From Polyangiaceae bacterium (GTDB lineage: Bacteria > Myxococcota_A > Polyangia > Polyangiales > Polyangiaceae), in assembly GCA_043747665.1 (NCBI GenBank), contig JAYTOQ010000105.1:15227-47226 (forward strand): a stretch of 32,000 nucleotides of DNA. Direction: 5' to 3'. Shown one piece after another: positions 19,701 to 21,019 of this stretch (its first letter is position 1; every line of letters starts with the position of its first letter). The notes under the pieces are model-generated. The model searched no databases and was not told the origin of the DNA. It worked only from the letters and a program-made list of their open reading frames with translations. The translations under genes and the position numbers were made by a program.

Positions 19701-21019
19701 ATGTCGAACAAACATCCCCACAACGAAGCCGGAGGCTCGGCCTACGCGTTCTCGCCGGCGCATGCGCTCGCGCAGTACGCCGTCACCGGGACCTTTCACG
19801 GCAGCTTCTACGGAAACCGACAAGGAGCAGCTCGATCGCGTGGCCGCGCTGGCCGGCGCGGTGACACCCGAGCTCGTCGCCAAGACCGCCATCTATTGCC
19901 GCGAGAGCGCCCGGATGAAGAACATGCCGGCATTCCTCGTCGCTCAGCTCGCGGCAACTTCGTCCAGACCGGTCGCTCCGGTGTGACCGGCCGCAAGTCG
20001 TTCGGCTCGGCCCCCAAGCGCGCGCTCGCTCGTGGTTCGCGAGCCGCTCGCCCGACGTCATCTTCCGCCAGTCGATCGGTCAGTCTCCGTCCATGTCGGA
20101 CGTCATCAAGATGGTTCGCCCTCCCCCGCGGAACGACAAGGGCGAAGCCGATGCCGTCCGTGAGGCCCTCTACGGCTACCTCATCGGCAAGAACATCGAC
20201 GACGACAAGCTCCGCACGCTACCCCGCGCCTTCGAGGCGTGGAAGCGCGGTAAGGGTGACCTGCCCGACGTGCCCTTCGAGATGCTCACCCCGCTACCGT
20301 TGAGCGCGACGCACTGGAAGGAGCTCGCCAGGCGCGTCGACAAGGGCGTGCCTCGCGAGATCGTCGACGCGATCAAGCAGGCGCTCGAGTACTCGGTGTC
20401 CAATGTGCCCGAGCTCGGAGGACGTGTCGTCCTCTGCCCCGACGTGTCGGGCTCGATGCAGTCACCGGTCACCGGCCATCGCGGCACGGCGACCACCAAG
20501 GTGCGCTGCGTCGATGTCGCGGCGCTCGTCACCGCGGCCATCCTGCGGCGCAATCCCGGCGCGACCGTCGTTCCGTTCTCGGACGACGTCGTGCACCTGG
20601 ATTGCCCGCTCGATCCGCTCGATTCGCTCGATTCAATCGTCAAGAATGCCGACCGCCTCCCATCGCTCCCGAGCGGTGGGACGTCGTGCTCGGCTCCTCT
20701 CCGCTGGCCCAACGCTCGCGGTGAGGCTCCCGATGTCGTCGTGTTCGTCTCGGACAACCAGTCCTGGTCGGATTTCCGGCTTTCGGCTCGTCATGATCCG
20801 AACGGCACGCGCGGCACAGTGATGGCGGAGGAATGGCAACGCCTGCGGGGCAGGAACCCGAAGGCGAAGCTGATCCTCATCGACGTGCAGCCGTCGAGCA
20901 CCACGCAAGTCCTCGGTGGTGCTGTCCGAGACGACGTCCTCAACGTGGGCGGCTTCTCGGACGCAGTCTTCGAAGTCATCTCCGCGTTCACCCGCGGCGA
21001 CCTCGCCGGCGACAGCTGA
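19701..21019 (+). pseudogene. rsr: Ro60/Rsr ortholog (TROVE + vWA), N-terminal half disrupted by frameshifts and deletions
   Basis: An AAAGGAG RBS precedes the ATG at 19701. Matches by recall to D. radiodurans Rsr are HNEAGGSAYAFS...GSFYG, VAKTAIYCRESARMKNMPAFLVAQLA, FGSAPKRALAR|WF, MSDVIKMVRPPP, the vWA MIDAS motifs LCPDVSGSM / SGGTSC / FVSDNQSW, and the C-terminal VLNVGGFSDAVFEVISAFTRGD. These segments lie in three different frames, with shifts near 19810, 19965 and 20031. The total is about 440 codons against about 530 expected. Only 20093-21019 is one long open frame. Confidence 0.75.
20608..20634 (+). repeat. 3 x 9-bp tandem repeat (gctcgatYc) within the vWA region
   Basis: Reads gctcgatcc gctcgattc gctcgattc, encoding LDPLDSLDS. 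Confidence 0.85.

What the first reader, a model, noticed from the sequence alone, without database searches (positions are those of the whole stretch)
19701..21019. Ro60/Rsr (TROVE-vWA) gene with three frame changes and internal deletions, but an intact vWA half
Recognisable Rsr segments occur in frame 0 (19701 to about 19810), frame 1 (about 19810 to 19986), frame 0 again (about 19965 to 20033) and frame 2 (about 20033 to 21019). Compared with a roughly 530-aa Rsr, about 90 codons of the TROVE ring are missing. The last 927 nt, holding the MIDAS-containing vWA domain, stay open and have an in-frame ATG at 20093.

Either the gene is a pseudogene in a decaying island, or a stand-alone vWA product is still made. 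Bacterial rsr genes normally sit beside Y-RNA genes and often RNA-repair genes. Here the neighbours are tRNA-like RNAs.
Basis: partly seen in the sequence, partly recalled or inferred. Interest (0 to 1): 0.65.

Follow-up and report, generated by a model that had tools for sequence, protein, structure and literature searches.

The report
Dead Ro60 gene in eroding tRNA array
This is a broken, no longer functional copy of the bacterial Ro60 (Rsr) RNA quality-control gene, lying in a shrinking cluster of tRNA genes that related soil and sediment myxobacteria still keep complete, so the gene itself is an ordinary pseudogene in an informative setting.

Summary
Window 19701-21052 (+) is the remnant of a 534-codon rsr (Ro60: TROVE ring plus vWA domain).

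Compared base by base with an intact ortholog about 7% diverged, it has seven lesions:
- a 36-nt deletion;
- a +1 insertion;
- a 64-nt deletion;
- a 1-nt deletion;
- a 162-nt deletion;
- a 9-nt tandem duplication;

The sequence is identical in an ENA scaffold and in Logan contigs from several runs. A 95.5%-identical sister strain shares five of the seven lesions. They are therefore not assembly errors.

The open 308-codon vWA ORF is not under selection:
- dN/dS against the sister strain is about 1.7, versus 0.20 for the neighbouring HNH gene and 0.21 for intact rsr;
- replacements hit invariant residues;
- no Shine-Dalgarno sequence precedes ATG 20093.

In ten related Labilithrix/Polyangiales MAGs, rsr sits inside a syntenic array of about 30 tRNA genes with an HNH gene. 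Here about 10 detectable tRNAs remain, and the downstream Band_7 gene is also fragmented. A third lineage with 6 tRNAs inactivated rsr independently.

Verdict: an ordinary pseudogene in a decaying island. Only the link between rsr and the tRNA array is of modest interest.

The parts
17357..19669 (+). Remnant of the tRNA array upstream of rsr. It holds 10 detectable tRNA genes: Lys-ttt, Lys-ctt, Gln-ctg, an Asn-like gene at 17711-17783, a Glu-ttc-like gene at 17953-18023, Phe-gaa, Gly-tcc, Cys-gca, Leu-cag and Glu-ctc. It also holds uncalled relics at 17844-17945, 18232-18302 and 19489-19565.
   Evidence: ARAGORN finds 8 and Rfam tRNA finds 8, for a union of 10. Most orthologous tRNAs score lower here than in L005 (for example Lys-ttt 40.8 vs 63.8 bits; Glu-ctc is an exception).
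18856..19389 (+). HNH endonuclease gene (177 aa). It is intact and still under purifying selection.
   Evidence: Pfam HNH/HNH_5 hits on the called gene. dN/dS is 0.20 against L001 and 0.14 against L007.
19593..19669 (+). tRNA-Glu(ctc), the last array member before rsr. It holds the same position in all intact loci.
   Evidence: ARAGORN; Rfam 56.8 bits; synteny.
19691..19703 (+). Shine-Dalgarno GGAG (19691-19694) and the ancestral rsr start codon ATG (19701-19703).
   Evidence: Sequence. The start is conserved with L004 and L001.
19701..19812 (+). rsr segment 1, in the ATG frame. The 36-nt deletion junction lies at 19716/19717 and removes ancestral residues 6-17. The segment ends at a 1-nt insertion at about 19812, in codon 50, found only in the window.
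19813..19953 (+). rsr segment 2, in the +1 frame (ancestral residues about 50-96). It ends at the 64-nt deletion junction 19953/19954, which removes residues 97-117 plus 1 nt.
   Evidence: The deletion is shared with L001.
19954..20026 (+). rsr segment 3, back in the ATG frame (ancestral residues about 118-142). It ends at a 1-nt deletion after 20026.
   Evidence: In runs X3 and X4, a contig of an intact-type relative still has the C.
20027..21016 (+). rsr segment 4, in the +2 frame (ancestral residues 143-523). It contains the 162-nt in-frame deletion junction at 20334/20335 (residues M246-H299, the conserved end of the TROVE ring), the 9-nt tandem duplication 20617-20634 (+LDS), and the vWA domain with MIDAS D-x-S-x-S at 20441-20455.
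20093..21019 (+). Relic ORF of 308 codons (protein P0016), annotated by gene callers as a vWA_Ro60 protein. No Shine-Dalgarno sequence lies upstream.
   Evidence: dN/dS is 1.7. No promoter-like site was found.
21017..21019 (+). TGA nonsense codon (ancestral TGG, W524), found only in the window.
21020..21052 (+). Former last 10 codons (LRAIESIALD) and the ancestral stop codon at 21050-21052.
21072..21122 (+). Conserved stable hairpin. In intact arrays it lies between tRNA-Gly(gcc) and tRNA-Met(cat); both of those tRNAs are deleted here.
   Evidence: dG is -33.8 kcal/mol, z = -5.1. It is present with compensatory stem changes in L004, L007, L010, L011 and L005.
21152..21225 (+). Decayed tRNA-Val(cac)-like relic.
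   Evidence: Rfam tRNA gives 26.8 bits, below the gathering score of 29, with six non-standard pairs. The L005 ortholog scores 41 bits.
21371..21851 (+). Fragments of a Band_7/SPFH gene. Only the C-terminal half remains, in at least two frames. The 5' half is deleted, along with the tRNA-like region upstream of it.
   Evidence: tblastn of the L005 Band_7 protein (376 aa) matches residues 181-370 only, in two frames. Alignment.

Best explanation
Window 19701-21052 is a multiply disabled pseudogene of rsr (bacterial Ro60, a TROVE ring plus a vWA domain). It sits at its ancestral chromosomal position in a Labilithrix-like (Polyangiales, Myxococcota) genome.

In related genomes, rsr is a conserved member of a syntenic array of about 30 tRNA genes that also carries an HNH endonuclease gene. 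The array lies between recA-comM and AHSA1/peptidase M18. In the lineage of this window the island is eroding:
- about two thirds of the tRNA genes are deleted or degenerate;
- the downstream Band_7 gene is fragmented;
- rsr has accumulated three large deletions, two single-base frameshifts, a small duplication and a nonsense codon.

What is shown: the lesions, their inheritance, neutral evolution of the whole relic including the open vWA ORF, and the synteny.

What is inferred:
- Translation from the retained Shine-Dalgarno and ATG at 19701 would give only a 200-aa product, mostly out of frame.
- The 308-codon vWA ORF is open merely because the relic is young and the DNA is 67.5% G+C, so few mutations create stops.
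- rsr lost its selective value together with the array it belongs to.
For: Lesion map. Nucleotide alignment with the intact ortholog L004 and sister strain L001 gives:
- del36 after 19716, del64 after 19953, del1 after 20026, del162 after 20334 and +9 at 20617-20634, all shared with L001;
- +1 at about 19812 and TGG>TGA at 21017-21019, in the window only;
- L001 adds its own +18 and +6 nt indels.

The lesions are real:
- The window is 100% identical to an ENA scaffold (L002, 11.5 kb) and a Logan contig (L003, 9 kb).
- Logan contigs of runs X1 and X2 cover the region with no differences at about 15x. X3 and X4 hold the same form at about 5x.

Selection:
- Window vs L001 gives 30 nonsynonymous to 7 synonymous changes, omega 1.46. 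In the vWA ORF it is 20 to 4, omega 1.7.
- Both reject omega 0.21 (p = 1e-7 and 7e-6) and are compatible with omega 1.
- Controls: HNH 0.20, recA 0.03, comM 0.04, M18 0.08, intact rsr L004-L005 0.21.

Lineage-specific replacements hit residues invariant in 112 full-length homologs: A50E, D86N, P205R and L421P in the window; C414R, D436A (MIDAS) and P482Q in L001.

Only 2.6% of point changes in the ORF create a stop, so 0.3-0.6 stops are expected and one is observed.

There is no Shine-Dalgarno sequence or promoter-like site before 20093.

Context:
- 27-34 tRNAs flank an intact rsr in the same order in L005, L011-L016 and L018; L010 shows at least 21 on a cut contig, and L020 has 28 but its rsr lacks about 93 vWA residues.
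- The window has 10.
- L007/L008 has 6 tRNAs and an independent TGG>TAG nonsense at codon 463.
- Band_7 is fragmented.

Family identity: P0001 aligns over residues 18-519 with D. radiodurans Rsr (PDB 2NVO), E = 6e-22.
Against: - No raw reads and no RNA or protein data from this organism were available. Only assembled contigs could be laid, and RNA runs hold at most 13% of the words. Absence of a product is therefore inferred, not shown.
- The MIDAS residues of the vWA domain are still all present in the window, and the ORF is called as a gene by annotation pipelines.
- dN/dS rests on 37 substitutions.
- The link between array erosion and rsr loss rests on two, possibly three, lineages. L017 has only 13 upstream tRNAs with an intact rsr, and L020 has 28 tRNAs with an rsr lacking about 93 vWA residues.
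Confidence: 0.9

Rival explanations
1. The 5' half is dead, but a stand-alone vWA (MIDAS) protein is still made from ATG 20093 and has a function of its own.
For: - The ORF of 308 codons is open.
- It hits Pfam vWA_Ro60 at E = 2e-17.
- DxSxS, T412 and D436 are intact in the window.
- A similar 327-aa ORF is open in sister strain L001.
Against: - omega is 1.7 in this ORF, with 20 nonsynonymous to 4 synonymous changes, rejecting omega 0.21 at p = 7e-6.
- The window carries P205R, R389C, A405P and L421P. L001 carries C414R, D436A and P482Q. Most of these fall at invariant or near-invariant sites.
- A nonsense codon removes the clade-conserved tail WLRAIESIALD.
- The N-terminal 150 residues of the ORF are a stump of the TROVE ring spanning the 54-codon deletion.
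- There is no Shine-Dalgarno sequence or promoter-like site.
- Apart from these two relic ORFs, no stand-alone vWA_Ro60 protein appears among the 120 listed hits; the other short entries still carry TROVE.
- Openness is expected by chance.
Confidence: 0.05
2. The indels are assembly or sequencing artefacts, and the gene is intact in the organism.
For: Only assembled contigs, not raw reads, could be inspected. A related intact-type rsr co-occurs in runs X3 and X4 at higher depth, so mixtures of strains exist.
Against: - The sequence is identical in an ENA scaffold and in Logan contigs from several runs.
- Five of the seven lesions, including the 36-, 64- and 162-nt deletions, recur in a 95.5%-identical strain from another sample. 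That strain also has private lesions of its own.
- The neutral substitution pattern is independent of indel calling.
Confidence: 0.02
3. The frame changes are programmed (recoding or frameshifting), and a shortened but functional Ro60 is produced.
For: The ancestral Shine-Dalgarno sequence and ATG are retained.
Against: - Three shifts in different directions would be needed.
- 87 codons of the ring are absent, including the conserved stretch M246-H299.
- The +1 insertion is absent from the sister strain, so the frame pattern is not conserved.
- Evolution is neutral in every segment.
Confidence: 0.01

Closest known systems
Bacterial Ro60 ortholog Rsr (Deinococcus radiodurans Rsr, PDB 2NVO; Salmonella Rsr of the rsr-yrlBA-rtcBA operon)
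   Same: The intact orthologs of this relic (P0001 and others, 520-540 aa) have the TROVE ring plus a vWA domain with MIDAS. They align end to end with 2NVO and carry Pfam TROVE and vWA_Ro60.
   Different: - The window copy is broken in seven places and cannot form the ring.
- No rtcB/rtcA RNA-repair genes are adjacent.
- No Y RNA reaches the Rfam YrlA gathering score.
- The neighbours are a tRNA array and an HNH gene.
tRNA array units / tRNA gene clusters with accessory genes (Tran et al. 2016, PMC4758250; Morgado & Vicente 2018, PMC5966550; archaeal clusters, Morgado & Vicente 2019, PMC6333295)
   Same: - High-density arrays of about 30 tRNA genes cover most isotypes.
- An HNH endonuclease is the commonest protein gene in Mycobacterium arrays.
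- A TROVE-domain gene is present in 20 of 29 archaeal clusters.
- tRNA pseudogenes occur within arrays.
   Different: - Here the array is a vertically conserved chromosomal feature of Labilithrix-like Myxococcota at one locus (recA-comM ... AHSA1).
- The papers searched do not mention Deltaproteobacteria or Myxococcota.
- The window shows a late stage of erosion, with fewer than 20 tRNAs, so it no longer meets the array definition.
Ro60/YrlA modules of tRNA-rich mycobacteriophages (Chen et al. 2014, PMC4201824)
   Same: A Ro60 ortholog is encoded on a genome that also carries many tRNA genes. tRNA-like partner RNAs are expected within 4 kb on the same strand.
   Different: - Nothing points to a phage or mobile element here.
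- The YrlA-like hits in relatives are sub-threshold (35.8 and 41.8 bits against a gathering score of 69).
- They have the tandem-tRNA look that the authors flag as false positives.

Membership tests
Ro60/Rsr (functional member) | One continuous ORF of about 500-540 codons | tested here: not met
   The ancestral frame is split over three frames, about 87 codons are missing, and there is a premature TGA.
Ro60/Rsr (functional member) | Complete TROVE HEAT-repeat ring | tested here: not met
   Residues 6-17, 97-117 and 246-299 (P0001 numbering) are deleted. Pfam TROVE does not score on the fragments or on the stitched read-through, although intact relatives carry it.
Ro60/Rsr (functional member) | vWA domain with MIDAS motif (DxSxS, T, D) | tested here: met
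   PF25045 at E = 2e-17. D335/S337/S339 (20441-20455), T412 and D436 are present in the window. The sister strain has D436A.
Ro60/Rsr (by descent: ortholog of rsr) | Sequence homology and conserved synteny with intact rsr genes | tested here: met
   - Nucleotide identity to L004 rsr is 84-95% across the three aligned blocks.
- The flanks match: tRNA-Glu(ctc) and HNH upstream, AHSA1 and M18 downstream.
- P0001 aligns with 2NVO at E = 6e-22.
Ro60/Rsr (functional module) | Partner Y RNA encoded nearby on the same strand | tested here: inconclusive
   No Rfam Y_RNA or YrlA hit in the window. Sub-threshold YrlA hits occur in L005/L006 and L011 downstream of intact rsr. The homologous stretch is largely deleted in the window.
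Pseudogene | Disabling lesions relative to functional orthologs, shown not to be artefacts | tested here: met
   There are seven lesions. The sequence is identical in an ENA scaffold and in Logan contigs from several runs. Five lesions are shared with sister strain L001.
Pseudogene | Relaxed (neutral) selection | tested here: met
   omega is 1.46 overall and 1.7 in the vWA ORF, against 0.20 for the adjacent HNH gene and 0.21 for intact rsr. Replacements fall at invariant sites.
Pseudogene | No functional product made | not testable with these tools
   No transcriptome or proteome of this organism is available. RNA runs hold at most 13% of the words.
tRNA array unit (Tran et al. 2016: at least 20 tRNA genes, at least 2 per kb) | At least 20 tRNA genes at a density of at least 2 per kb | tested here: not met
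   The window has 10 detectable tRNAs in 17357-19669, so the density is adequate but the count is below 20. Relatives meet the definition: 27-34 tRNAs in about 9 kb.
YrlA (Rfam RF02553) | Score at or above the gathering threshold (69 bits) | tested here: not met
   The best scores are 41.8 bits (L011) and 35.8 bits (L005/L006). There is no hit in the window, L013 or L016.

The most novel reading that the evidence does not exclude
In Labilithrix-like Myxococcota, Rsr/Ro60 may be a functional component of an ancient, vertically inherited array of about 30 tRNA genes. It might act, for example, in quality control or turnover of the array's own unusual tRNAs, or with a tRNA-derived Y RNA encoded in the array.

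On this reading, rsr becomes dispensable once the array erodes. That would explain why the eroded-array lineages (window/L001 and L007) inactivated rsr independently. The window would then be a natural 'knock-out series' linking Ro60 to tRNA arrays in bacteria.
Probability: 0.25. Interest if true: 0.6.

Novelty: new member of a known kind. Interest (0 to 1): 0.3.

Why it matters
The relic is a routine pseudogene. Its practical value is for annotation: the 308-aa 'vWA_Ro60' protein called by pipelines (P0016, and P0027 in the sister strain) should be flagged as a pseudogene fragment.

The setting is more useful. It shows that in one bacterial family a Ro60 ortholog is a conserved resident of a large tRNA array with an HNH gene. 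It also shows that rsr was inactivated independently in the two lineages whose arrays have shrunk.

This comparative hint ties bacterial Ro60 biology to tRNA arrays. Such a link has so far been noted for archaeal tRNA clusters and tRNA-rich phages. It suggests where to look for the still unknown Y RNA or substrates in this clade.

Tried and rejected
- Pfam on the individual shifted fragments and on the stitched read-through found vWA_Ro60 only and no TROVE. The TROVE identity therefore had to be shown by alignment to intact orthologs.
- Rfam at gathering and at permissive E-value thresholds found no Y RNA or YrlA around the relic.
- The sub-threshold YrlA hits in relatives are a T-arm followed by the D-arm of the next tRNA-like unit. 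Chen et al. 2014 name this as a false-positive type. The hits are absent from L013 and L016, so I did not accept them as Y RNAs.
- The MFE fold of the region downstream of rsr (21148-21345) was no better than shuffled sequence, z = -0.8.
- The search for RNA-seq runs gave only runs holding at most 13% of the words, that is conserved pieces from other organisms.
- One context look-up (P0004) failed for technical reasons.
- I tried to decide whether array erosion in the window and in L007 is shared or independent. The window/L001, L007 and L004 lineages form an unresolved trichotomy, with 5/5/2 informative sites. Only the rsr lesions can be called independent.
- Programmed frameshifting was considered and rejected, because the frame pattern is not conserved in the sister strain and the core is deleted.
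Full report
**1. The observation**

The three forward frames of 19701-21019 were translated. The closest intact homolog found in the protein search, P0001 (534 aa), was mapped back with tblastn. Recognisable Ro60/Rsr sequence runs as follows:
- in the ATG frame from 19701 to about 19812;
- in the +1 frame to 19953;
- in the ATG frame again to 20026;
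- in the +2 frame to 21019.

The ORF 20093-21019 (308 aa) is open. Pfam scores only vWA_Ro60 (PF25045, E = 2e-17) on the last part and nothing on the short shifted pieces. The stitched read-through nevertheless finds more than 7,000 TROVE+vWA proteins, the best at E = 3e-240. These are mostly 520-540 aa proteins from Labilithrix/Polyangiaceae MAGs. The intact homolog aligns over residues 18-519 with Deinococcus radiodurans Rsr (PDB 2NVO, E = 6e-22).

**2. Lesion map at base resolution**

The DNA encoding P0001 (L004) and a sister-strain contig (L001, 95.5% identical over 3 kb) were fetched and aligned with the window. Relative to the intact gene the window has these changes:
- a 36-nt deletion after 19716 (residues 6-17);
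- a 1-nt insertion at about 19812 (codon 50);
- a 64-nt deletion after 19953 (residues 97-117 plus one base);
- a 1-nt deletion after 20026 (codon 142/143);
- a 162-nt in-frame deletion after 20334 (M246-H299, the conserved end of the TROVE ring);
- a 9-nt tandem duplication at 20617-20634 (+LDS);
- TGG>TGA at 21017-21019 (W524).

The ancestral stop is at 21050-21052, and the former last ten codons still read LRAIESIALD.

**3. Not an artefact**

- The window is 100% identical to an ENA scaffold (L002) over 11.5 kb and to a Logan contig from another run (L003) over 9 kb.
- When Logan contigs were laid on 19500-21200, runs X1 and X2 cover the stretch with a 9-kb contig, no differences, at about 15x.
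- X3 and X4 hold the same form at about 5x. They also hold, at about 19x, a contig of a related intact-type rsr that has the 64 nt and the C at 20026.
- L001, from a different sample, shares the 36-, 64-, 1- and 162-nt deletions and the duplication. It lacks the +1 insertion and the nonsense codon, and has private +18 and +6 nt indels.

The lesions are therefore inherited, and decay has continued separately in both strains. Raw reads were not available. That is the remaining gap.

**4. Is the vWA ORF still used?**

Nei-Gojobori counts in the ancestral frame gave the following:

| Comparison | Nonsyn : syn | omega |
|---|---|---|
| rsr relic, window vs L001, whole | 30 : 7 | 1.46 |
| vWA ORF 20093-21016, window vs L001 | 20 : 4 | 1.7 |
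| HNH gene, window vs L001 | 4 : 6 | 0.20 |
| HNH gene, window vs L007 | 9 : 18 | 0.14 |
| recA, window vs L007 | | 0.03 |
| comM, window vs L007 | | 0.04 |
| peptidase M18, window vs L007 | | 0.08 |
| intact rsr, L004 vs L005 | | 0.21 |

- The relic's counts reject omega = 0.21 (p = 1e-7 overall, 7e-6 for the ORF) and fit omega = 1 (p about 0.24).
- Lineage-specific replacements fall on residues invariant or nearly so in 112 full-length homologs. In the window these are T47S, A50E, D86N, P205R and L421P. In L001 they are R140L, C414R, D436A (a MIDAS aspartate) and P482Q.
- Only 2.6% of point changes in the ORF would create a stop, so 0.3-0.6 new stops are expected at this divergence and one is seen. 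The DNA is 67.5% G+C. Openness therefore carries no weight.
- The ancestral start keeps GGAG at 19691-19694. ATG 20093 is preceded by GGTCAGTCTCCGTCC, with no Shine-Dalgarno sequence and no promoter-like site.

I conclude that the whole relic, vWA half included, drifts neutrally.

**5. Surroundings**

Upstream lie ten detectable tRNA genes (17357-19669) and an HNH gene (18856-19389). Contexts of intact relatives were fetched and scanned.

In L005 and L010-L020 (Labilithrix sp., Polyangiaceae and Myxococcales MAGs; Rsr identity to P0001 from 92% down to 54%), rsr lies inside a syntenic array. The tRNA counts are:

| Locus | tRNAs |
|---|---|
| L005 | 27 |
| L010 | at least 21 (contig cut) |
| L011 | 31 |
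| L012 | 33 |
| L013 | 31 |
| L014 | 34 |
| L015 | 30 |
| L016 | 32 |
| L018 | 30 |
| L020 | 28 |

The gene order is always Lys-Lys-Gln-Asn-Thr ... Leu-Leu-[HNH]-Pro-Ser-Phe-Arg-Arg-Met-Glu(ctc)-[rsr]-(Thr)-Gly-Met-Gln-Val/Leu ... Tyr. The array lies between recA-comM and (Band_7)-AHSA1-peptidase M18. rsr is a continuous ORF in all of these except L020, which lacks about 93 residues of the vWA domain in frame.

Against this template the window has changed as follows:
- It has lost or degraded about two thirds of the tRNAs.
- It keeps relics such as the tRNA-Arg(acg) piece at 19489-19565 and a tRNA-Val(cac)-like sequence at 21152-21225, which now scores 26.8 bits against 41 bits for its L005 ortholog.
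- It retains only out-of-frame fragments of the C-terminal half of Band_7 (21371-21851).
- The HNH gene alone remains under purifying selection.

**6. A second, independent inactivation**

L007/L008 (Polyangiaceae MAG GFS_6217, about 7% diverged in rsr) has only six tRNAs left. Its rsr carries none of the window's lesions but has its own TGG>TAG at codon 463.

The window/L001, L007 and L004 lineages form an unresolved trichotomy, and the deletion boundaries in the array differ. The rsr inactivations are independent. How far the array erosion is shared is undecided. L017, with 13 upstream tRNAs and an intact rsr, is a partial counter-example to a strict coupling.

**7. Y RNA**

No Rfam Y RNA or YrlA hit exists in the window. 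Sub-threshold YrlA hits lie 0.7-0.85 kb downstream of intact rsr in L005/L006 (35.8 bits) and L011 (41.8 bits; gathering score 69). Each consists of a T-arm and 3' acceptor strand followed by a complementary 5' acceptor strand, a D-arm and an anticodon-like arm. That could be a permuted tRNA-like domain as in YrlA. It could equally be the tandem-tRNA false positive that Chen et al. 2014 warn about. L013 and L016 have none. The homologous stretch is largely removed in the window by the deletion that also took the 5' half of Band_7. I leave this open.

**8. Comparison with what is known**

- tRNA array units are defined as at least 20 tRNA genes at 2 or more per kb (Tran et al. 2016; abstract listed).
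- HNH endonucleases are the commonest protein genes in Mycobacterium arrays (PMC5966550).
- A TROVE-domain gene is present in 20 of 29 archaeal tRNA clusters (PMC6333295).
- Ro60 with tRNA-like YrlA RNAs occurs in mycobacteriophages (PMC4201824).

The association of rsr, tRNA array and HNH is therefore a known kind of arrangement. Its conserved chromosomal form in Labilithrix-like Myxococcota was not mentioned in the papers I could search. The relic itself is a new instance of an ordinary phenomenon.

**9. Verdict**

This is an rsr pseudogene in an eroding tRNA-array island (confidence 0.9). The alternatives are unlikely:
- stand-alone vWA product, about 0.05;
- assembly artefact, about 0.02;
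- recoding, about 0.01.

Interest is low for the pseudogene and modest for the comparative lead that links Ro60 to tRNA arrays in bacteria.

Noticed in passing
window 21072-21122: A very stable hairpin (dG -33.8 kcal/mol, z = -5.1). Its inner part, CGUUCACCG-GAAAAG-GUGUCG, is conserved, and the outer stem shows compensatory changes in L004, L007, L010, L011 and L005. In intact arrays it sits between tRNA-Gly(gcc) and tRNA-Met(cat). Here it survives although both tRNAs are gone. Its function is unknown; it could be a processing signal or a protein- or Ro-binding stem.
   Followed up: partly
window 21371-21851: A second pseudogene. Only out-of-frame fragments of the C-terminal half of a Band_7/SPFH gene remain; the gene is 376 aa and intact in L005 10678-11808. 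L007 lacks it entirely.
   Followed up: partly
window 17844-17945, 18232-18302, 19489-19565, 21152-21225: tRNA relics not called, or called only below threshold. By synteny with L005 and L010 they are Thr(cgt), His(gtg), Arg(acg) and Val(cac). Most of the still-detectable array tRNAs score lower than their L005 orthologs.
   Followed up: partly
window 18856-19389: The HNH endonuclease gene inside the array stays intact and under purifying selection (omega 0.14-0.21) in the window, L001 and L007, while the tRNAs and rsr around it decay.
   Followed up: partly
L007 8001-9617 (= L008/L009, Polyangiaceae MAG GFS_6217): rsr was inactivated independently by a single TGG>TAG at codon 463, in a locus with only 6 tRNAs left. 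The tRNA just upstream of rsr has anticodon ttc there instead of ctc.
   Followed up: yes
L020 10001-11254: The rsr of this Labilithrix MAG lacks about 93 residues of the vWA domain in frame (P0001 residues 383-475), although its 28-tRNA array looks complete.
   Followed up: no
L005 10316-10405, L006 2897-2986, L011 12437-12579: Sub-threshold Rfam YrlA hits downstream of intact rsr. Each has a T-arm and 3' acceptor strand followed by a complementary 5' acceptor strand and a D-arm. They could be a permuted tRNA-like Y RNA candidate or tandem tRNA debris.
   Followed up: partly
window 21967-22851: An ORF of 294 aa homologous to an AHSA1/SRPBCC-domain gene of L005. It has a long Lys/Ala/Pro-rich, histone-H1-like C-terminal tail (KKPAAKKPAAKKPAA...).
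   Followed up: no
runs X3 and X4 laid on window 19599-20200: A related strain with an intact-type rsr co-occurs with the pseudogene-bearing strain in the same sediment samples. Its 1,586-nt contig carries the 64 nt and the C at 20026, at about 19x versus about 5x for the pseudogene form.
   Followed up: partly
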